In this document: positions 2,718 through 62,329 of the stretch, one piece after another
Layout: every line of letters begins with the position of its first letter
Position numbering within the stretch: the stretch's first letter is position 1
Source of the DNA: an uncultured Gammaproteobacteria bacterium
GTDB lineage: Bacteria; Patescibacteriota; Patescibacteriia; UBA9934; GWF2-40-263
DNA length: 64,000 nt
Reading direction: 5' to 3'
NCBI GenBank assembly: GCA_964402425.1
Contig: CAYOCD010000004.1
Location: 3,318 to 67,317, forward strand
Program-made: the position numbers and the translations under genes
Notes under the pieces: generated by a model
Told to the model about the DNA's origin: nothing
What the model saw: the letters and a program-made list of their open reading frames with translations, nothing else
Database searches by the model: none

Positions 2718-3293
2718 TTAACTTCCGTAGGTATAGGCAAGAGCGATCAAGACCCATGGCAAAAAAAATCCGAGCACAGCACCAACAATCACGTCTGAAA
2801 AATAATGAACTCCAACAGCAACACGAGAAAGAGCAACCCAAGCTGCGTAGAAGAAAAATAAAATAACTCCTATCAAGGCTGTTGTTTGTGAAATATGTGA
2901 AATGCTAGATGTCCACCAAGACAAACTTGTGATCGCGAGAAATACGAGCGCAAATGAGAGAGATGTATGTGCTGAAGGAAATGACGGAGTCTTGCACATG
3001 AGTGGAATACGCGCCTCGTAAAGTTTACATTCAAATGGGCGTTTGCGACGAACAAGAAGCTGCAAAAGAAATGTGATAAACCAAACCATTCCTATCATTT
3101 GTACAAACCCAAATATTTGACCATTCGAAATAGGCGTACATAATGGAAAAACGTCTGGCGTGATCAGTACGGTCATGAATCCTAAAACATAAATCGCATA
3201 TCTTGCTCCCACCACAGAAAAAAATAAAAATACAGGCGTTGCATGCGCACGATCGTAAATCCATTTTGAAATAGTATGATCTAGATTTTTCAT
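2718..3293 (-). CDS. PAP2-family phosphatase (undecaprenyl-diphosphatase / PgpB-like membrane protein)
   Basis: KX6RP (RRKRPFE), PSGH-like (SFPSAHTS) and SRX5HX3D (SRVAVGVHYFSDV) motifs; multiple TM segments. Confidence 0.75.
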   Translation of the reverse strand: MKNLDHTISKWIYDRAHATPVFLFFSVVGARYAIYVLGFMTVLITPDVFPLCTPISNGQIFGFVQMIGMVWFITFLLQLLVRRKRPFECKLYEARIPLMCKTPSFPSAHTSLSFALVFLAITSLSWWTSSISHISQTTALIGVILFFFYAAWVALSRVAVGVHYFSDVIVGAVLGFFLPWVLIALAYTYGS

Positions 3294-4003
3294 GTAGCTT
3301 TTTCACGCAATGTTTCCAAAACAGTTTCTCTTCGATCGATATCTGCAAGAATCTCCTCTGCATTTTTTGGCAACACCAAATTCTTTTTCTTAAACGCACA
3401 CGGTTCGCGAACCGGACACGCCCAACAACGCGGGGATCGGATACAAATATATCTTCCAAGTTTTACGAAGACTCGATTCACTGTTTGATGATACCGCGAC
3501 GGAACAAGATCGAGAAGTTTCTGCTCCGCTTCTTCAACTGTTTTCGATCGAACCCAGCCGAGTCGGTTCGTCACACGAAATACGTGCGTATCGACCGCAA
3601 TCGCGGTTTTATCGAACGAACACACAAGCACCACACTCGCCGTTTTTCGTCCGACACCTGCGAGCGTAACAAGCTCGTCCATCGTCGATGGAATCTTTCC
3701 GTCGAACTTTTCCACAACATCCGTCGCCATCTTTTTCAAATTCTTTGCTTTCTGTTTATACATTCCAATCGTGTTGATCTTCGATTCAATCTCGCTCGTC
3801 GTCGCCTTCGACAATTTCTCCACACTCGAAAACGCGTTCCAGAAACCCGGAAGCAACTTCAGAACCTGCTCATCTCGCGTCCGCGCCGACAACATCACAG
3901 CAACAAGATTCTGATACGGACTCCCAAGCTCCATCGCACCCGGATTTGGAAACTGTTTTTTGAGGATTTTAAGCGTGGAGATGATTTGATTCATAGTTGT
4001 CAT
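3290..4003 (-). CDS. nth: endonuclease III (HhH-GPD base-excision glycosylase with a 4Fe-4S cluster)
   Basis: HhH-GPD motif LVTLAGVGRKTASVV and C-X6-C-X2-C-X5-C (CIRSPRCWACPVREPC). The track start ATG is donated by the repeat-element end TGTCAT; the true start may be the internal MNQIIS. Confidence 0.9.
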   Translation of the reverse strand: MTTMNQIISTLKILKKQFPNPGAMELGSPYQNLVAVMLSARTRDEQVLKLLPGFWNAFSSVEKLSKATTSEIESKINTIGMYKQKAKNLKKMATDVVEKFDGKIPSTMDELVTLAGVGRKTASVVLVCSFDKTAIAVDTHVFRVTNRLGWVRSKTVEEAEQKLLDLVPSRYHQTVNRVFVKLGRYICIRSPRCWACPVREPCAFKKKNLVLPKNAEEILADIDRRETVLETLREKAT

Positions 4004-4091
4004 TGCGAGGAGTTCGACGACGAAGCAATCTTGTGTCGATCATGAGAGAAACGCAAAGACGGCTTCGCTTCGCTCGCAATGACACAATTCC

Positions 4092-5672: not shown

Positions 5673-5811
5673 ATTGTTTATTTTATAGTGTGTCACCCCA
5701 CACTTCAAAGCAGCCCCCCACGACCGCTACCTGTTTAGTCGAAGGATCTCACGTTGATCATGTGATTCGATGGAAAACTCGAGATTCTTCGCTTCGCTCA
5801 GAATGACACAA

Positions 5812-8537: not shown

Positions 8538-9035
8538 CTAAAACAATTTCAAAAGCCATGATCGTGACTGAACAACCTTCAAACGAGAAACAAAGAAATC
8601 AAGTCCAAACCAATGACCGAATTCACCAAATAAAAATAATCCGGAAACAAGCGCGTAAATAATATGTTCGTCAACAAATCCATGAGCTGTATTCATGGTC
8701 CAACCAGACACATAAAATAACAACATCATGATCACATTGAAAAACGCTGCAGGCTTTATAAACAATCCTGTTAAAAACGCAAGACCGATCAAAAGCTGAC
8801 CATACATCACAAGACTGTCAACGACAGGATTTCCTCCCAAAGATTGAAACCATACAGAAAACGGACCACTTGCATACTGCAAATACCCTACCGCACTCCA
8901 ATCAGGCACACTCATTTTTGCCCATGCTGCATTCAACATGAGAAACGCCATAGCAAAACGCAACAAGACGCACAGAACAATGAACCCTTTTGCATCCGCT
9001 GCGCGAGCCAAACGATCAAATGATGAGGTTTTCAT
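8538..9035 (-). CDS. DoxX-family membrane protein
   Basis: Four-TM DoxX-like hydrophobic profile (about 165 aa), sitting between gap and pgk. Confidence 0.65.
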   Translation of the reverse strand: MKTSSFDRLARAADAKGFIVLCVLLRFAMAFLMLNAAWAKMSVPDWSAVGYLQYASGPFSVWFQSLGGNPVVDSLVMYGQLLIGLAFLTGLFIKPAAFFNVIMMLLFYVSGWTMNTAHGFVDEHIIYALVSGLFLFGEFGHWFGLDFFVSRLKVVQSRSWLLKLF

Positions 9036-34337: not shown

Positions 34338-34440
34338 TGTCATCCTGAGGAAGTTCGACGACCGAAGGATCTCGCGTTTATAAGTGCTTTATTAACGCGA
34401 GATCCTTCGGCTAAACCTGAAACGGTCGCTCAGGATGACA
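34338..34440. mobile_element. MITE-like palindromic element, family 1 (TIRs TGTCATCCTGAGG / GCTCAGGATGACA)
   Basis: 103 nt with terminal inverted repeats and an internal palindrome gaaggatctcgcgtt...aacgcgagatccttc; it supplies the last codons and stop of folA. Confidence 0.8.
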
Positions 34441-42500: not shown

Positions 42501-43988
42501 TCAAGCAATAGATATTTGTCCTTCCAATATCCACGTTTCTGCTTTTGTTATTTTAACATTCACGATCTCTCCCACCAATTCTTTTCCCCCAACAAATGTC
42601 ACAAGTTTCATTTCGCGAGAGTTTCCAAAACACATTCCAGGCTGTTTCTTAAGCGTCTCTTGAATCTTTTCCGGCATCTTAAGCATTTCATCCGTAATCT
42701 TTGGCGCCTCATGTCTTTCGACAAGCACACTCACAATCTCGCCCACATACTGTTGATTTTTTTTACGTACAACATCTTCCATCACGGCTTGTAATTCATT
42801 CCAACGGCGTTTCTTTTCTTCTTGTGTGACATCATCTTTAAACGCACGCTTTGCCGCTGTGCCTGATCGTTCAGAATAGCGCGCATTGTAGCCGATATCG
42901 AATTTGATATCTCGATACATATCGATCGTCTTTTGAAATTGCTCTGGTGATTCGCCTGAGAATCCAACAATGATGTCCGTACCAATCGCGAGGTTTGGAA
43001 TTTTTGCTCGCAGTCGATCAACAACTTCATGAAACTGTTCGATGGTGTAACGACGATTCATGCGGCGAAGAACTTCATTGTCACCTGCCTGAACCGGAAG
43101 ATGAATAAAGTTTACGTGTGCAGGAAGCGTCATTGCATCAATCACTTCATCTGTCATGTGAAGCGGATGTGGTGCGGTAAAGTGTAGTCGTTTGATTTCT
43201 GGAATCTGGTTTACTTCCCAAAGCAATGCGGCAAAGTGGTTTTCTTTCTGGTCATTGCGAGGAGGAGTCATCGACGACGAAGCAATCTTCGCGTTCGCGG
43301 GGAAAGATTGCTTCGCTGCGCTCGCAATGACAAAAGGATTCCCCACCGAAAAATTCTCCGCATCAGGTGCAAGATAACTATTCACCGTTTGTCCAAGCAA
43401 TGTCACTTCAATACATCCATGTGCGGCAAGATCACGAACCTCATCGAGAATATCTTTCACAGATCGGTTCTTCTCAAGCCCACGCGCAAATGGAACAACA
43501 CAATACGTACAAAACTTATTGCATCCGGTCTGGATAGAGACAAACGCCTGACGAACAGATCGGCGCTCTGGATTAATTTTGAGATAGTCTTCAATCAAAT
43601 CCGTACTGTTCACAAGGTCAGGACGAAGTTCCCCAATCCATCGAGGCAACTGCCCCATATCTGCTGTTGGGAAATACAAATCCACACTCGGAATCTTTTT
43701 ACGAATCACACCATCGCGATCCCGCCCCGCCATGCAACCTGTAATACCAAGAATGAGCTTTGGATTTGTTTCCTTAAGCGCTTCGAATTCATGAACTTTT
43801 CCGAACACACGGTCTTCCGCCTGTTGGCGAACCGAGCATGTATTGATCAAAATCAAATCTGCCTCGGCCGGCATATCGGTCGACACAAACCCAAGCCCAT
43901 GAAGTAAAGCTTCCATGCGCTCCGAATCATTTTTGTTCATCTGACAACCAAATGTGAGGAGATGATATTTTGGTTTTGTATCCAACAT
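42501..43988 (-). CDS. miaB: tRNA-2-methylthio-N6-dimethylallyladenosine synthase (radical-SAM methylthiotransferase) carrying an in-frame repeat-element insertion
   Basis: MTTase N-domain LLTFGCQMN, radical-SAM CNKFCTYC, TRAM C-terminus. There are about 35 extra residues (…FVIASAAKQSFPANAKIASSSMTPPRND…) between the GQTVNSY motif and the next conserved block. Confidence 0.88.
   Translation of the reverse strand: MLDTKPKYHLLTFGCQMNKNDSERMEALLHGLGFVSTDMPAEADLILINTCSVRQQAEDRVFGKVHEFEALKETNPKLILGITGCMAGRDRDGVIRKKIPSVDLYFPTADMGQLPRWIGELRPDLVNSTDLIEDYLKINPERRSVRQAFVSIQTGCNKFCTYCVVPFARGLEKNRSVKDILDEVRDLAAHGCIEVTLLGQTVNSYLAPDAENFSVGNPFVIASAAKQSFPANAKIASSSMTPPRNDQKENHFAALLWEVNQIPEIKRLHFTAPHPLHMTDEVIDAMTLPAHVNFIHLPVQAGDNEVLRRMNRRYTIEQFHEVVDRLRAKIPNLAIGTDIIVGFSGESPEQFQKTIDMYRDIKFDIGYNARYSERSGTAAKRAFKDDVTQEEKKRRWNELQAVMEDVVRKKNQQYVGEIVSVLVERHEAPKITDEMLKMPEKIQETLKKQPGMCFGNSREMKLVTFVGGKELVGEIVNVKITKAETWILEGQISIA
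43251..43332. mobile_element. family 1 palindromic element copy (GTCATTGCGAGG ... GCTCGCAATGACA) inside the miaB reading frame
   Basis: Same TIRs and core as the intergenic copies; on the coding strand it translates in-frame to VIASAAKQSFPANAKIASSSMTPPRND. Confidence 0.8.
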
Positions 43989-44021
43989 AACGATGGGAAG
44001 ATTAACAGAAAAGGCTTATTT

Positions 44022-44034
44022 TGTCATTGCGAAG
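44022..44034. repeat. solo family 1 TIR fragment (TGTCATTGCGAAG)
   Basis: Matches the element terminus; no partner end found nearby. Confidence 0.4.
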
Positions 44035-44099
44035 AACGAAACGGTAAAGTGATCTTTTAGACAAATCGACCAATAAAAAAGACCCCCGAGTAAGGAGTC

Positions 44100-47962: not shown

Positions 47963-49705
47963 AACGATTGGAAACTTTGACGCATCAACAGCCTTTGCAA
48001 TAAGTTCGCTTGCGGCAATCATAATGTCTTCTGTTTGTCCGAAGACGTTTACTTTGAAGTCTCCCCCGTCCACTTCTTTCTGTCCGATCACGATCGTCCA
48101 TGGCACTTTCATGGTTGCAGCATCGCGAATTTTCTTTCCGACTTTCTCATTTGAGTCGTCGAGCTCGGCGCGTACTCCGGCTTCGACAAGCTCAGCCAGT
48201 ATTGTTTCCGCGAACGGAATGAATGCTTCACTTACAGTTGCGATGCGCACTTGCGCAGGTGCGAGCCAGAACGGAAAGGCACCGGCGTAATGTTCGATGA
48301 GAACTCCCATGAATCGTTCGACACTTCCGAGAATGGCGCGGTGAATCATGACTGGGCGCTTGATTTGGCCATCTGCATCATGGAACTCTAATTCAAAGCG
48401 CTCTGGAAGGTTAAAATCGAGCTGAACCGTTGCTAATTGCCAATCTCGTCCGATTGCATCTGTTGCAATAAAATCGATCTTTGGTCCATAAAACGCTGCT
48501 TCACCAACACCGAGTTCAAAGTCGCGACCAAGCTCGGTCAACATGTCTTTGAGTGCTGCCACCGCTTTTGTCCAAACCTCTGCCCCACCAAGATATTTCT
48601 CTGGATGTTCTGGATCATCGACGGATAAACGGATGCGAAGTGGCATGCCGAATGCTGCGTAAAATTTTGTGATGATGTCGTAGATCTTCAATACTTCTTC
48701 TTTCACTTGATCTGGGCGAGCAAATACGTGTGCATCGTCCTGTGTGATGGATCGAACACGTGTGAGGCCGGCGAGTTGTCCTGTGTTCTCATCGCGATAC
48801 ACCGTTGTTGCCTCCGCGAAGCGCAACGGCAAATCGCGATAGCTGCGCATCTTGGACGCATAAATTTGCGTGTGATGCGGACAATTCATTGGCTTTAAGA
48901 CAAATTGATCATCGGTCTTTTTACTTGTGACATGAAAAATATCGTCCGCAAATTTGTCCCAGTGACCAGATGTTTTGTAGAGATCGGATTTTGCGATGTG
49001 CGGAATCCACACACGAGAATATTTGTGCGGTTTCATGAGCGCAGTCACAAATCCGGTGAGTGCCTCACGCATGGCGGTTCCGCGCGGAGTGAACATCGGG
49101 AGTCCGGATCCGACGAGCGGTGAATAGGTAAAGAGTTCGAGCTCAGCTCCCAATTTGCGATGATCACGCTTCTTTGCTTCTTCAAGCATCAAAAGGTGCG
49201 CATCGAGTTCCTCTTTCGTTGCAAAAGCCAAACCGTAAATACGTGTCAGCATTTGATTCTTCTCATCTCCGCGCCAATACGCCCCTGCAACTTTCGACAA
49301 TTGAAACGACTCAGGATCCACATCAGAAATTCCTTCATCATGCCCACCACGACAAAGATCTTTAAATGAACCGGATTTGTAGAATGTAAGCGTTTGCCCT
49401 TCTCCAGAAAATTGTTCGATGAGTTCGAGCTTGTATGGATTTGATGAAAACACATTCTTTGCTTCATCCACAGAAACTTCTTCACGATCAAATTTATTCC
49501 ATGATGGAAGAATCTCTCTCATCTTTGTTTGAATCTTTGGAAGATCTTCTTCTGTGATTTGTTTTGAAAATTCGAAATCATAATAAAACCCATCATCAAT
49601 GGCTGGACCAATGGTGCGTTTGGTATCTGGCCAAAGCTCCATAACGGCTGCCGCAAGCAAGTGCGCAAGCGAATGCCTGCGATGTTCTAGTTGATCTTGT
49701 GTCAT
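47960..49705 (-). CDS. thrS: threonyl-tRNA synthetase
   Basis: Class II aaRS core plus anticodon-binding domain. The track start (49720, MTQT...) lies in the repeat TIR; the likely true start is MTQDQLEH at 49705. Confidence 0.9.
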   Translation of the reverse strand: MTQDQLEHRRHSLAHLLAAAVMELWPDTKRTIGPAIDDGFYYDFEFSKQITEEDLPKIQTKMREILPSWNKFDREEVSVDEAKNVFSSNPYKLELIEQFSGEGQTLTFYKSGSFKDLCRGGHDEGISDVDPESFQLSKVAGAYWRGDEKNQMLTRIYGLAFATKEELDAHLLMLEEAKKRDHRKLGAELELFTYSPLVGSGLPMFTPRGTAMREALTGFVTALMKPHKYSRVWIPHIAKSDLYKTSGHWDKFADDIFHVTSKKTDDQFVLKPMNCPHHTQIYASKMRSYRDLPLRFAEATTVYRDENTGQLAGLTRVRSITQDDAHVFARPDQVKEEVLKIYDIITKFYAAFGMPLRIRLSVDDPEHPEKYLGGAEVWTKAVAALKDMLTELGRDFELGVGEAAFYGPKIDFIATDAIGRDWQLATVQLDFNLPERFELEFHDADGQIKRPVMIHRAILGSVERFMGVLIEHYAGAFPFWLAPAQVRIATVSEAFIPFAETILAELVEAGVRAELDDSNEKVGKKIRDAATMKVPWTIVIGQKEVDGGDFKVNVFGQTEDIMIAASELIAKAVDASKFPIV

Positions 49706-49713
49706 ATGCGTTT

Positions 49714-49782
49714 GTGTCATCCTGAGCAGAGCGAAGGATCTCGTGTTAAAAGAAGAGATTCTTCACTGCGTTCAGAATGACA
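49714..49782. mobile_element. family 1 palindromic element (TGTCATCCTGAGC ... GTTCAGAATGACA)
   Basis: TIRs plus a cgaaggatctcgtgtt core; abuts the thrS start. Confidence 0.75.
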
Positions 49783-51305: not shown

Positions 51306-51435
51306 TGTATCATTGCAAGGAATTCGACGACAAAGCAATCTTTTTTCCGATATCTCGTGGCTTAAAATAAAAGAAGTCACAGACAAAGAAGCGCAAAGAT
51401 TGCTTCGTCGTCGATGACTCCTTCTCGCAATGACA
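51306..51435. mobile_element. family 1 palindromic element, long form (TGTATCATTGCAAGG ... CTCGCAATGACAC)
   Basis: 130 nt with an internal palindrome gaattcgacgacaaagcaatcttt...aaagattgcttcgtcgtcgatgac; sits between the dnaE stop and the next gene's start. Confidence 0.8.
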
Positions 51436-58273: not shown

Positions 58274-58286
58274 AACATTTGCTTCT

Positions 58287-58659
58287 TGTGTCATCTCGAG
58301 CGGAGCCGAGAGATCTCACGTTTATAAGTCCATTGCCAAATCCTTTCGTTCTGGATTTATTTCATCAATCAAAAACTCTTTCTTCGCGCGATTCCATTTC
58401 TTTAATTGCTTCTCACGTTCAAGTGCTGAAACCACTTCATTCGTCTGTTCGTAATATACGAGTTTGTTGCAGTTATACTTCGCTGTAAATCCTTCGATCA
58501 TCTTCTCTTTATGTTCAAACACTCTTCTCTGAAGATTATTTGTGACACCGATGTACAAAACCGTATTAACAGGATTAGACATGATGTAAATGAAGTAAGA
58601 ACGTTCGGACATATAAATGTGAGATCCCTCGGCTGCGCTGCGCTTCGCTCGGGATGACA
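58287..58659. mobile_element. composite family 1 element carrying a GIY-YIG nuclease ORF (TIRs TGTGTCATCTCGAGC ... GCTCGGGATGACA), inserted between pheS and pheT
   Basis: The same TIR and core sequences as the short copies (…gagatctcacgtttataag … gagatccctcggctgcgctgcgcttcgctcgggatgaca) bracket a GIY-YIG ORF. Confidence 0.75.
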
Positions 58660-58660
58660 C
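58322..58660 (-). CDS. GIY-YIG nuclease family protein (COG2827/UPF0213-like)
   Basis: YIGVTNNLQRRVFEH GIY-YIG motif. The N-terminal 16 aa (MSSRAKRSAAEGSHIY) are translated from the element TIR; the likely real start is MSERSYFIYIM at about 58612. Confidence 0.8.
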   Translation of the reverse strand: MSSRAKRSAAEGSHIYMSERSYFIYIMSNPVNTVLYIGVTNNLQRRVFEHKEKMIEGFTAKYNCNKLVYYEQTNEVVSALEREKQLKKWNRAKKEFLIDEINPERKDLAMDL

Positions 58661-58667
58661 GGGGAAA

Positions 58668-59714
58668 CTAGAACTGTTTCACAAACCTCAAATCATTCTT
58701 ATACAGCACGCGAATGTCATCAATATTCATTCCTTCTTTCATCATCATGGTGCGCTCCACTCCCCAACCGAAGGCGAATCCGGAGAATTCTTCTGAATCG
58801 AGGCCGCCGGATTTCAAGACGTTTGGATGAACCATTCCGGCTCCCCCGAGTTCCATCCATCCTTCTTTGCACAATCGACAATTCACAGACGGATCTGCAT
58901 TACAGACACCGCAACTAATATCGATCTCAAAACTTGGTTCGGTAAAACGAAAATGGTGTGGGCGCAACCGTGTTGTACGCTCAGGGCCAAAATACGTTTT
59001 CGCAAAATAATCGATCGTTCCTTTTAAGTTTGCGATCGTCATGCCGCGATCAATCACTAATCCCTCAAACTGATGGAACATGGAAAGATGACGTGTATCA
59101 GATTGACGACGATACGTTCTGTTGATGTTGATCATGCGAATCGGTGGTTTTTGTGTTTCCATGATGCGCACCTGAGAGTTTGATGTGTGCGGTGTGAGAA
59201 CAAGTTTTCCTTTTGCCCCTTCTGGCACATCCACAAAAAACGTCTCCCAATCATCGCGCGCTGGGTGATCGCCCGGCATGTTCAATGCCTCAAACACATA
59301 ATAGTCCCAGTCAATTTCTGGAACGCGTGCGCTTGTGAATCCGATTTTTTTGAACGTGTCTTCAATCTCCGCAATTGTTTGCGTTACAGGATGCAAATGC
59401 CCCGTGTTCGAAAAATCACCCGGTGCCGTAACATCAATCCATTCGTCTTCTGCGCGGCGCAATTCTTCTTGTTCAAAAAGCGATCGCTCTTTATCTCCAA
59501 ACGCCCTTTCAATGGAACTTTTCAGTTCATTCGCAAATTGTCCGATGACTTTTCGTTCATCATCTGCAAGGCTCATCATTTCTTTCATGAGCTCGTTTAA
59601 CTTTCCTTTGCGACCAAGAACGTCTGTTTTAAGTGCCTCAAGATTCTCGCGATCTGTGATCTTCTCAAGAAGAGCGAGGGCATCTTGTTTTAATTGTTCA
59701 ATTTTTGATTTCAT
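58668..59714 (-). CDS. pheS: phenylalanyl-tRNA synthetase alpha subunit
   Basis: Class II core motifs (FRxE..., GLGxER). Confidence 0.93.
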   Translation of the reverse strand: MKSKIEQLKQDALALLEKITDRENLEALKTDVLGRKGKLNELMKEMMSLADDERKVIGQFANELKSSIERAFGDKERSLFEQEELRRAEDEWIDVTAPGDFSNTGHLHPVTQTIAEIEDTFKKIGFTSARVPEIDWDYYVFEALNMPGDHPARDDWETFFVDVPEGAKGKLVLTPHTSNSQVRIMETQKPPIRMININRTYRRQSDTRHLSMFHQFEGLVIDRGMTIANLKGTIDYFAKTYFGPERTTRLRPHHFRFTEPSFEIDISCGVCNADPSVNCRLCKEGWMELGGAGMVHPNVLKSGGLDSEEFSGFAFGWGVERTMMMKEGMNIDDIRVLYKNDLRFVKQF

Positions 59715-62071: not shown

Positions 62072-62329
62072 TCACATGCTTTTCAAAAACGTTGCGATCA
62101 AATCCATTTTTTCGATACGCGACAAACATTTCATCTTCGCCTCCGCCTTTAACGCAGTCGAACGATCACGATACTTCTTTGAATAAACAAGCCTCACAGG
62201 CCGACGAGCGCGAGTGTATTTTGCTCCCCGATCGGATGTGTTGTGTTCAAGAATACGACGATCAAGATCTGTGGTGATGCCGGTATAGAGCGTTTGGTCG
62301 GTACACTCAAGGATGTAGAGAAAATACAT
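62072..62329 (-). CDS. GIY-YIG nuclease family protein (COG2827/UPF0213)
   Basis: YILECTDQTLYTGITTDLDRRILEHN GIY-YIG motif; 85 aa. Confidence 0.8.
   Translation of the reverse strand: MYFLYILECTDQTLYTGITTDLDRRILEHNTSDRGAKYTRARRPVRLVYSKKYRDRSTALKAEAKMKCLSRIEKMDLIATFLKSM

What the first reader, a model, noticed from the sequence alone, without database searches (positions are those of the whole stretch)
58287..58659. Palindromic element with TGTCAT/ATGACA-type ends: one GIY-YIG-carrying copy, six short copies and one solo end
At least seven full copies share 12-15-bp terminal inverted repeats of the form TGTCAT(T/C)(G/C)(C/T)GAG(G/C) ... (G/C)CTC(G/A)(C/G)(A/G)ATGACA and a conserved internal palindrome (gaaggatctcgcg... 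/ ...gaagcaatctt). They lie at 3998-4084, 5691-5808, 34338-34440, 43251-43332, 49714-49782, 51306-51435 and 58287-58659, with a solo end at 44022-44034. Six are short (70-130 nt) and non-coding. The seventh has the same ends but encloses a GIY-YIG nuclease ORF (58322-58660) and sits exactly between pheS and pheT, which are normally adjacent. This looks like a mobile family with a nuclease-bearing member and MITE-like derivatives. I am not aware of this architecture being an established element class.
Basis: partly seen in the sequence, partly recalled or inferred. Interest (0 to 1): 0.85.

Follow-up and report, generated by a model that had tools for sequence, protein, structure and literature searches.

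The report
Ssn nuclease gene with hairpin repeats
A small single-strand-DNA nuclease gene of the Ssn family (described in 2025), bracketed by its own hairpin repeats, sits between two essential genes of a groundwater Uhrbacteria genome, with gene-less pairs of the same hairpins nearby; the kind of system is known, but here the units visibly come and go between close relatives, even inside genes.

Summary
Seven palindromic elements plus one solo arm share TGTCAT-type ends (17 motif hits against 3 expected). One encloses a 96-aa GIY-YIG gene lying exactly between pheS and pheT.

It is not an unrecognised class. The protein is 49% identical over its full length to Neisseria SsnA, and the catalytic Y, Y and E residues are conserved. 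SsnA is the founding member of the Ssn family of ssDNA-specific nucleases, whose genes are flanked by hairpin repeats (NTS/SRM; Chenal et al. 2025).

Each arm has NTS geometry: GTC, a covarying 5-bp stem, then C. The loops are longer, so the published SRM pattern misses them. The short copies are tail-to-tail doublets of two such hairpins, like REPINs or Neisseria NIMEs.

New here:
- Relatives with 94% identical pheS have an empty site (TAGTATG), and there is no target duplication.
- Two other copies are absent from close relatives.
- One "non-coding" copy is in frame inside MiaB, at a site that is empty or differently filled in orthologues.
- The nuclease is under strong purifying selection (dN/dS 0.05-0.08).

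Verdict: a new member of a known kind. A classical transposon/MITE reading is not supported.

The parts
58274..58667 (-). Whole insert between the pheS stop codon and the pheT start codon: 394 nt, where empty alleles have a single T.
   Evidence: Empty alleles L007-9, L011, L013, L014 and L018 read TAG-T-ATG. The window reads TAG-TTTCCCCG-[TGTCAT...ATGACA]-CAAGAAGCAAATGTT-ATG.
58620..58660 (-). Arm upstream of the nuclease gene: TGTC-ATCCC-loop-GGGAT-CTCACA. The GTCAT end faces outward.
   Evidence: It is identical over ~40 nt in L136, although the gene's dS there is 0.45.
58322..58612 (-). Ssn-family GIY-YIG nuclease gene, 96 aa.
   Evidence: PF01541 E = 1.5e-16. 49% identity, E = 2e-31, to the Neisseria gonorrhoeae SsnA orthologue. 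Y9, Y20 and E67 correspond to SsnA Y6, Y17 and E64. dN/dS 0.05-0.08.
58286..58319 (+). Arm downstream of the gene: TGTC-ATCTC-loop-GAGAT-CTCACG. The GTCAT end faces outward and its ATG overlaps an in-frame upstream start of pheT.
3998..4084 (.). Gene-less doublet of two inverted arms, between an HhH-GPD glycosylase gene and iPGM. The right arm is partly degenerate.
   Evidence: z = -3.65.
5691..5808 (.). Doublet between iPGM and enolase. The right arm (5780-5811) is intact; the left outer end is degenerate.
34338..34440 (.). Best-preserved doublet. Its centre, TTTATAAGT...TTATTAA, matches the sequences that abut the start and stop codons of the nuclease gene.
   Evidence: z = -9.63.
43250..43332 (-). 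Doublet inserted in frame in the radical-SAM domain of MiaB. It adds VIASAAKQSFPANAKIASSSMTPPRND.
44020..44056 (+). Solo, degenerate arm upstream of MiaB.
   Evidence: nhmmer E = 0.0022 and 0.07 in the leave-out model. The local stem is not intact.
49715..49782 (.). Doublet upstream of thrS. Its two arms have different stems (ATCCT and ATTCT), each paired locally. It is absent from L001 and L003.
51306..51435 (.). Doublet between dnaE and the next gene. It is absent from L001 and L002, which carry an unrelated palindrome there.
   Evidence: z = -5.2.

Best explanation
The locus is an Ssn-SRM system in a Candidatus Uhrbacteria (CPR) genome.

Shown:
- The 96-aa protein is a single-domain GIY-YIG nuclease homologous along its whole length to Neisseria SsnA, with the catalytic residues conserved.
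- It is bracketed by two inverted hairpin modules. Their invariant features (GTC 5' of a stem, C 3' of it) are the nucleotides that SsnA needs for cleavage and binding.
- The six short elements are tail-to-tail doublets of two such modules without the gene.
- These units are present or absent between close relatives without target duplication, including in frame inside MiaB.
- The gene is under strong purifying selection.

Inferred:
- The nuclease binds each arm when it is single-stranded (replication, repair or DNA uptake) and nicks a few nucleotides 5' of GTC, at or just outside each outer boundary.
- Host replication and repair, not the nuclease, then copy, delete or homogenise the hairpin units.

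On this reading the system behaves like a REPIN-RAYT pair: one maintained nuclease gene and a dispersed population of hairpin doublets. It does not behave like a self-copying transposon with MITEs.
For: Homology:
- tblastn E = 3e-21 and BLASTP 44/89 identities, E = 2e-31, to the only hit in an N. gonorrhoeae chromosome. That hit is surrounded by canonical NTS repeats.
- Its numbering reproduces the published mutants Y6A, Y17A and E64A. The equivalent residues are invariant in A1.

Arm structure:
- 94.5% of cells pair in the 5-bp local stem, 14 cells carry double changes, and 0 of 500 shuffles reach this. Slid controls pair 20-47%.
- Five stem variants occur, and the two arms differ in 2 of 7 window elements and 13 of 27 elsewhere.

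Association across phyla:
- Of 75 homologues, 45 have an outward-facing unit upstream, 38 downstream and 27 on both sides.
- 72% of nearby TGTCAT sites carry the stem, against 18% of distant ones.
- Unit density is 3.4 per 10 kb, against 0.36 expected.

Polymorphism. In a pheS tree, the empty alleles L007 and L011 nest among filled ones, and the junction filler of the filled alleles is homologous.

Selection and constraint:
- dN/dS 0.05-0.08, and dS against L001 is 0.88, compared with 0.93 for pheS.
- The arms are identical over ~40 nt at dS 0.45.

Literature: PMC11893778 and PMC3116915 for REPINs.
Against: - The published degenerate SRM pattern finds nothing in the window and only 7, 4 and 3 of the 75 flanks.
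- The local arm hairpins are not more stable than shuffles (z = +0.5 to -1.3). The long left-right fold-back is the thermodynamically dominant structure.
- The leave-out profile reaches the gene-flanking arms only weakly.
- In the Neisseria locus the NTS nearest the gene faces inward, the opposite orientation.
- The insert boundaries lie 7-8 and 14-15 nt outside TGTCAT/ATGACA (one T is ambiguous). From the published 37-nt and 28-nt substrates I infer a cut about 3 nt upstream of the NTS in N. meningitidis; the paper itself says only "a few nucleotides upstream".
- There is no biochemistry for this protein.
- cd10448 membership could not be run.
- Only 64 kb of the genome was seen, so "single copy" is not established.
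Confidence: 0.75

Rival explanations
1. Autonomous IS-like transposon whose transposase is the GIY-YIG protein, with the short copies as its MITEs.
For: - Inverted ends shared by a gene-carrying copy and gene-less copies.
- The centre of copy 34338-34440 keeps the sequences that abut the gene's start and stop, as a deletion derivative would.
- The same element, at 81% and 79% aa identity, lies in unrelated contexts in L137 and L139, with similarity ending at GTCAT/ATGAC.
- Presence/absence polymorphism.
- GIY-YIG genes are among those reported as exchanged by Patescibacteria (PMC12455944).
Against: - No target-site duplication.
- Only one Ssn-type gene was seen in 64 kb, though no systematic scan for further copies was run.
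- dN/dS is 0.05-0.08 and dS equals that of pheS against L001, which fits vertical descent.
- The arms of one element are often of different types.
- At pheS|pheT the filled alleles share homologous filler, so they trace to one insertion rather than repeated hops.
- GIY-YIG enzymes hydrolyse DNA and form no covalent intermediate for strand transfer (general knowledge).
Confidence: 0.17
2. Free-standing homing endonuclease gene, as in the phage seg/mob GIY-YIG genes. It would be lodged between two conserved genes and spread by cutting empty pheS|pheT alleles. The short palindromes would be unrelated.
For: - It lies exactly between adjacent essential genes, with empty alleles in relatives.
- Gene identity (88-92%) does not track host divergence (pheS 94%, 83%, 79%).
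- A weak match to TIGR01453.
Against: - TIGR01453 scores 24.5 bits against a cut-off of 56.05, and there is no DNA-binding domain.
- Characterised family members cut only ssDNA next to their hairpin.
- The arms are shared with the short copies and with homologues in many phyla at unrelated loci.
- The same element occurs at other loci.
Confidence: 0.04
3. The short palindromes are ordinary host regulatory structures (terminators, mRNA stabilisers or a structured RNA), and their resemblance to the gene's flanks is incidental.
For: Most lie between co-directional genes and fold strongly.
Against: - No Rfam family matches.
- No T-tract follows the hairpins.
- One copy is translated inside MiaB.
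- They are absent from orthologous spacers of close relatives.
- The motif is tied to Ssn-type genes across phyla.
- SsnA does not act on RNA.
Confidence: 0.04

Closest known systems
Ssn nucleases with NTS/SRM repeats (Chenal et al. 2025, Nat Commun, PMC11893778)
   Same: - A single-domain GIY-YIG protein of ~95 aa, homologous to SsnA, with the catalytic Y, Y and E residues conserved.
- Flanked on both sides by hairpin repeats that start with GTCAT and are followed by C.
- The same repeats are dispersed in intergenic DNA.
   Different: - The stem is 5 bp with a 9-30 nt loop (often GA-GC-GNA-GC-GA), instead of an 8-bp stem with a 4-nt loop, so the published SRM pattern misses it.
- The repeats occur as tail-to-tail doublets with the GTCAT ends outward.
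- The host is a CPR bacterium.
- Insertion polymorphism and in-frame insertion in genes are documented here, whereas the paper only raised mobility as a hypothesis.
REPIN-RAYT systems (Bertels and Rainey 2011, PMC3116915; PMC3337134)
   Same: - One nuclease gene flanked by its repeats.
- The dispersed unit is a doublet of two inverted repeats that folds into a long hairpin.
- The gene is maintained by purifying selection and largely vertically inherited.
   Different: The enzyme is a GIY-YIG hydrolase, not an HUH tyrosine transposase, so it cannot itself rejoin DNA.
IS200/IS605 single-strand transposons
   Same: - Hairpins near both ends are recognised as ssDNA.
- There is no target duplication.
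- Empty sites are restored exactly.
   Different: - There is no TnpA.
- The ends are inverted copies rather than distinct left and right ends on one strand.
- Only one gene-carrying copy is seen.
Neisseria dRS3 / NIME arrays
   Same: Pairs of inverted NTS-type repeats, ~80-110 nt apart, occur next to the ssnA locus (L055).
   Different: Different stem and loop. Arrays in Neisseria against isolated doublets here.
Rickettsia palindromic elements (RPE; mentioned in PMC10969869, PMC1166351)
   Same: Small palindromic elements inserted in frame in protein-coding genes.
   Different: No sequence relation was found: the element peptides hit no NCBIfam model. No nuclease link is established for RPEs, to my knowledge.
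UPF0213 / COG2827 (YhbQ-type) GIY-YIG proteins
   Same: Small single-domain GIY-YIG proteins.
   Different: - The flagged ORF has no match to 1ZG2 or 1YWL.
- The window's other GIY-YIG gene (62072-62329) does match them (E ~1e-17), has no arms, and is only 32% identical to the flagged ORF.

Membership tests
Ssn nuclease family (cd10448) | Single-domain GIY-YIG protein of about 90-100 aa | tested here: met
   96 aa. PF01541 covers residues 22-94 of the 112-aa ORF, E = 1.5e-16, and there is no other domain.
Ssn nuclease family (cd10448) | Homology to Neisseria SsnA (the paper's criterion is tblastn E < 1e-10) | tested here: met
   tblastn E = 3e-21. BLASTP 49% identity over 89 aa without gaps, E = 2e-31. 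The target is flanked by canonical NTS repeats and its numbering fits Y6, Y17 and E64.
Ssn nuclease family (cd10448) | Catalytic tyrosines and glutamate (SsnA Y6, Y17, E64) | tested here: met
   Y9, Y20 and E67 are invariant in the 22-sequence alignment A1.
Ssn nuclease family (cd10448) | Assignment to CDD model cd10448 rather than cd10456 or others | not testable with these tools
   No CDD search is available. Indirect evidence: no PDB match to UPF0213 structures, unlike the window's second GIY-YIG gene.
Ssn nuclease family (cd10448) | Gene flanked on both sides by SRM repeats, as defined by the published degenerate pattern | tested here: not met
   0 matches in the window. The positive control on the canonical NTS works.
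Ssn nuclease family (cd10448) | Flanking hairpin with GTC immediately 5' of the stem and C immediately 3' (the nucleotides needed for cleavage and binding) | tested here: met
   T3, C4, A5 and T6 are invariant and C22 is nearly invariant. The stem covaries.
Ssn nuclease family (cd10448) | Cuts ssDNA only, next to its hairpin | not testable with these tools
   Needs purified protein.
Classical IS / MITE | Target-site duplication at filled sites | tested here: not met
   The empty site reads TAG-T-ATG. The filled site has TTTCCCCG on one side and CAAGAAGCAAATGTT on the other. At most one T is shared.
Classical IS / MITE | Terminal inverted repeats shared by autonomous and short copies | tested here: met
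   The leave-out profile is only weak.
REPIN-RAYT | Associated gene is an HUH Y1 transposase | tested here: not met
   The only Pfam match is GIY-YIG.
REPIN-RAYT | The dispersed unit is a doublet of inverted repeats forming a hairpin, and the gene is flanked by them | tested here: met
GIY-YIG homing endonucleases (I-TevI type) | Match to TIGR01453 above its cut-off, plus a DNA-binding domain | tested here: not met
   24.5 bits against a cut-off of 56.05. The protein has a single domain.
UPF0213 / COG2827 | Sequence match to 1ZG2/1YWL-type proteins | tested here: not met
   No PDB match for the flagged ORF.
Rickettsia palindromic elements | Sequence match to RPE domain models | tested here: not met
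   Eight element-encoded peptides give no NCBIfam hit at E <= 10. I did not confirm that the library copy contains RPE domain models.
Any Rfam RNA family | Score at or above the gathering threshold | tested here: not met
   0 matches in the window.

The most novel reading that the evidence does not exclude
SRM-ssn-SRM units and their gene-less doublets could be a genuine class of single-strand-DNA mobile element driven by a GIY-YIG hydrolase rather than an HUH or DDE transposase. The class would insert and excise precisely without target duplication, leave exact empty sites, and be able to colonise surface loops of essential genes in frame, as seen in MiaB here and in pheS in L012.
Probability: 0.3. 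Interest if true: 0.75.

Novelty: new member of a known kind. Interest (0 to 1): 0.42.

Why it matters
The 2025 Ssn paper left open what these nucleases do outside Neisseria, and whether the repeat-gene-repeat unit is mobile.

This locus and its relatives supply natural filled, empty and remnant alleles of the same site. They also give in-frame insertions at one codon of MiaB and a hairpin variant that the published search pattern misses. Surveys based on that pattern probably undercount the system, at least among the nearest homologues of this protein.

The alleles make the mobility question testable by comparative genomics, and with a handful of oligonucleotide cleavage assays. They also offer new nuclease/hairpin pairs for ssDNA tools.

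Tried and rejected
- Rfam at gathering thresholds: no hit in the window.
- PDB sequence search for the flagged ORF: only a spurious primase match.
- NCBIfam for the ORF: nothing above cut-off.
- NCBIfam for element-encoded peptides, as a test of an RPE relation: nothing.
- A loose unit definition (any GTCA plus a 5-mer stem) was useless, with 18 hits against 13 expected. It was replaced by GTCAT-anchored tests.
- Nearest-neighbour folding of single arms as DNA gives energies no better than shuffles. The local hairpin therefore rests on covariation and on the analogy with the NTS, not on energy.
- The leave-out profile was weak.
- Repeated independent insertion at pheS|pheT was considered and set aside, because the junction filler is homologous among filled alleles.
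- A 2026 preprint that mentions Ssn and hairpins (10.64898/2026.09.22.753630) appeared in a search but could not be read.
- Supplementary tables of the Ssn paper are not held.
- No structure prediction was run; the Pfam and SsnA matches made it unnecessary.

Full report

Yes. The eight listed sites are in the sequence as described.
- The end motif TGTCATYSYGAG, allowing one mismatch, occurs 17 times against 3.04 expected. No shuffle out of 100 reached 17.
- A profile built from the arms finds 14 arms at E <= 0.002 and nothing else in the window: 13 arms in seven elements plus the solo arm at 44020-44056.
- The short elements fold as long DNA hairpins far better than shuffles, z = -2.5 to -9.6.
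- The ORF 58322-58660(-) is a GIY-YIG domain protein (PF01541, E = 1.5e-16). It lies between pheS (58668-59714) and pheT.

Three details need correcting.
- The nuclease almost certainly starts at the ATG at 58612 (96 aa), as its homologues do. The upstream 16 codons are a translated arm.
- The left outer end of 5691-5808 is degenerate.
- Copy 43250-43332 is not non-coding (see section 5).

- A profile trained only on the short copies reaches the gene-flanking arms weakly: E = 0.086 and 0.32, over the outer ~16 nt.
- A bipartite pattern that requires both the outer motif and the inner GARNRATCT gives 7 hits against 0.02 expected. The hits include both gene-flanking arms and five short-copy arms.
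- So the similarity does extend beyond the core.

**2. Anatomy**

Each arm reads (T)GTC-A-T-x-y-z ... loop of 9-30 nt ... z'-y'-x'-A-T-C-T-C-(G/A)-C-G.
- The three variable stem bases always match their partner within the same arm: TTGC/GCAA, TCCT/AGGA, TTCT/AGAA, TCTC/GAGA and TCCC/GGGA.
- On an alignment of all 14 arms, 94.5% of cells pair, three of the five pairs change on both sides, and 14 cells carry double changes. No shuffle out of 500 reaches this. Sliding the partner by 1-3 columns drops pairing to 20-47%.
- In two of the seven window elements the two arms have different stems, each paired locally (49715-49782 and the gene-carrying copy). The same is true of 13 of 27 doubly flanked homologues elsewhere.
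- The conserved object is therefore a hairpin module. An "element" is two modules placed tail to tail, often of different loop types.
- A caution: by nearest-neighbour energies the single-arm hairpins are no better than shuffles, and the long left-right fold-back dominates.
- The inverted repeat runs into the first and last codons of the nuclease gene (ACATTTATATGTCC and GGACTTATAAACGT). The best short copy, 34338-34440, keeps this centre (TTTATAAGT...TTATTAA). The gene sits exactly in the loop of a doublet.

**3. What it is**

A literature search found Chenal et al. 2025 (PMC11893778). The paper reports the following.
- SsnA of Neisseria meningitidis is a 94-aa single-domain GIY-YIG protein (CDD cd10448).
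- It binds a hairpin repeat, NTS (CGTCATTCCCGCGMAVGCGGGAATCYRG), only as ssDNA, and cuts a few nucleotides upstream.
- Thousands of homologues exist, and most are flanked by related hairpins (SRM).
- The authors note that NTS-ssnA-NTS looks like an insertion sequence and compare it with REP/RAYT.

By luck, two N. gonorrhoeae chromosomes are filed in the plasmid collection.
- The window protein hits a single place in them: E = 3e-21, and 49% identity over 89 residues without gaps (pairwise E = 2e-31).
- That place is surrounded by canonical NTS repeats.
- Numbering the Neisseria sequence puts tyrosines at 6 and 17 and the REKQ glutamate at 64, exactly the published mutants Y6A, Y17A and E64A.
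- The equivalents in the window protein (Y9, Y20, E67) are invariant in a 22-sequence alignment.

The paper's mutagenesis found that the C right after the palindrome matters most for binding, and the three bases upstream of it matter most for cleavage. These are the near-invariant C and the GTC of the window arms.

The published degenerate SRM pattern nevertheless finds nothing in the window, because it allows only short loops.

**4. How general is this arm type?**

One scan of species-representative genomes returned 80 loci from many phyla.
- Of 75 homologues with enough flank, 45 have an outward-facing GTCAT hairpin within 150 nt upstream, 38 downstream and 27 on both sides. Inward-facing units number 18 and 18.
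- The published pattern catches only 7, 4 and 3 of these.
- Two classes appear: an 8-bp stem with a 4-5 nt loop (NTS-like, for example in a Rickettsiaceae genome), and the 5-bp stem with a longer loop seen here.
- Of the TGTCAT sites just outside these genes, 72% carry the local stem, against 18% of sites more than 2 kb away.
- Units are ten-fold enriched in these loci, 3.4 against 0.36 per 10 kb.

**5. Signs of movement**

The host is a Candidatus Uhrbacteria lineage from groundwater.

*pheS|pheT site.* Metagenome contigs with pheS relatives gave a natural series.
- Filled alleles: L001-L006 and L010 (pheS 94% identical), L136 (83%) and L138 (79%).
- Empty alleles reading TAG-T-ATG: L007-L009 (94%), L011 (86%), and the outgroups L013, L014 and L018.
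- A remnant: L012 (84%) has a doublet plus a solo arm, no gene, and the same right junction as the window.
- There is no target duplication. The insert carries 7-8 nt (TTTCCCCG) and 15 nt (CAAGAAGCAAATGTT) outside the arms.
- These fillers are homologous among the filled alleles, which argues for one insertion.
- In a pheS neighbour-joining tree, the empty L007 is sister to the filled L001, and the empty L011 also nests among filled lineages (a single gene, with no support values).
- So either the insert was lost exactly at least twice, or alleles are exchanged by recombination.

*Other copies.*
- Two other window copies (49715-49782 and 51306-51435) are missing from the orthologous spacers of L001-L003, which hold unrelated palindromes.
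- L001 and L002, otherwise nearly identical, differ in the loop of one arm.
- The same element (81% and 79% aa identity) sits in unrelated contexts in L137 and L139, and similarity ends at GTCAT/ATGAC.

*In frame in MiaB.*
- Copy 43250-43332 is 81 nt in frame in the radical-SAM domain of a MiaB-type gene. It adds VIASAAKQSFPANAKIASSSMTPPRND.
- The closest orthologues (91-93% identical) read NPY|QNHF with no insert.
- Four others carry different hairpin-derived inserts at the same codon.
- L012 has a solo module in frame in pheS.

**6. Is the gene selfish or kept?**

- dN/dS is 0.05-0.08, close to that of pheS (0.04).
- dS against L001 (0.88) equals that of pheS (0.93), as expected for co-descent.
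- Against L136 the gene is closer (dS 0.45) than the host genes suggest. This hints at some exchange.
- The arms of the window and L136 are identical or differ by one base over ~40 nt at that dS, so the arms are constrained, loops included.
- Only one Ssn-type gene was seen in the 64 kb; I did not scan the whole window systematically for further copies.

**7. Most likely mechanism**

- Shown: the family identity, the hairpin module with the SsnA-critical bases, the doublet organisation, the polymorphism without target duplication, and purifying selection.
- Inferred: the nuclease binds each arm in ssDNA and nicks 5' of GTC, at or just beyond each outer boundary on its own strand. Host replication and repair then copy, delete or homogenise the modules.
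- GIY-YIG enzymes hydrolyse DNA and cannot rejoin it (general knowledge), so a cut-and-paste role as a transposase is unlikely.
- The closest working analogy is REPIN-RAYT (PMC3116915). Membership of that family fails, because the enzyme is not an HUH transposase.
- The role shown in Neisseria, restricting incoming ssDNA that carries the repeat, may also apply. CPR bacteria are thought to rely on DNA uptake (my knowledge, not tested here).

**8. Rivals**

An autonomous transposon with MITEs, a homing endonuclease, and ordinary regulatory hairpins or an RNA family are weighed in the rival section. Each fails at least one direct test here.

**9. Novelty and score**

The kind of system is known since 2025, and this is a new member of it, in a CPR genome. 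The additions are:
- a long-loop hairpin variant missed by the published pattern;
- the outward-facing doublet organisation;
- filled, empty and remnant alleles of one site;
- in-frame colonisation of MiaB and pheS.

These additions are modest, but they bear on the question the paper left open. Interest 0.42.

Noticed in passing
window 62072-62329 (-): A second, different GIY-YIG gene of 85 aa, of the UPF0213/YhbQ (COG2827) type. It matches PDB 1ZG2 and 1YWL at E ~1e-17, is 32% identical to the Ssn-type ORF, and has no TGTCAT arms.
   Followed up: yes
window 43250-43332, inside ORF 42501-43988 (-): A doublet is inserted in frame in MiaB, adding 27 aa. The nearest orthologues lack it. P0121, P0128, P0129 and P0141 carry different hairpin-derived inserts at the same codon, and P0122 and P0123 carry an unrelated repeat (GKATEATKVTEAT...) there. 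This codon is an insertion hot spot.
   Followed up: yes
L012 1601-1625; also L136 and L138 pheS: A solo hairpin module lies in frame inside pheS (VSSCHPEQSEGSPL) at the FFVDAP|GK loop. L136 and L138 have other, unrelated inserts at the same loop.
   Followed up: partly
window 49700-49720, 3998-4003, 58289-58294: The element end ATGACA supplies start codons.
- thrS begins ATGACACAAGAT (MTQD), where L001 has ATGCTTACTTCAGAC (MLTSD).
- The HhH-GPD gene 3290-4003 starts in the end of doublet 3998-4084.
- pheT has an in-frame upstream ATG in the arm.
- ATGACACAAGA recurs at two of these sites.
   Followed up: partly
L001 about 8600-8790; L002 5446-5634: Between the element and pheT these relatives carry about 190 nt with four palindromes of the type GTCACAAATTGTGAC. 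These are absent from the window. They may be an operator-like array or another small repeat family.
   Followed up: no
L001 8565-8599 versus L002 5410-5445: These two near-identical contigs differ in the loop of the downstream arm. In L001 the arm is a perfect inverted copy of the upstream arm; L002 has the window-type loop. This suggests arm replacement or homogenisation on a short time scale.
   Followed up: partly
L001 16630-16734 and 18236-18396: Where the window has doublets (after dnaE and before thrS), L001-L003 have unrelated long palindromes. These spacers seem to be recurrently occupied by different palindromic elements.
   Followed up: no
L055 (N. gonorrhoeae NZ_CP119142, 1881719-1881985): Two records filed as plasmids in the collection are whole gonococcal chromosomes. 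In this ssnA orthologue the only ATG (ATGCAC) is out of frame with the conserved reading frame, so the gene may use a non-ATG start or be frameshifted in this strain.
   Followed up: no
arms such as window 5783-5808 (-), 49715-49740 (+): Many loops read GA-GC-GNA-GC-GA. The core GCGAAGC is, to my recollection, a very stable DNA mini-hairpin, and tandem G.A pairs could extend the stem. The inner pairs covary (GC/GC, AC/GT, GG/CC). This would fit a DNA rather than an RNA structure, and the energy model used does not capture it.
   Followed up: partly
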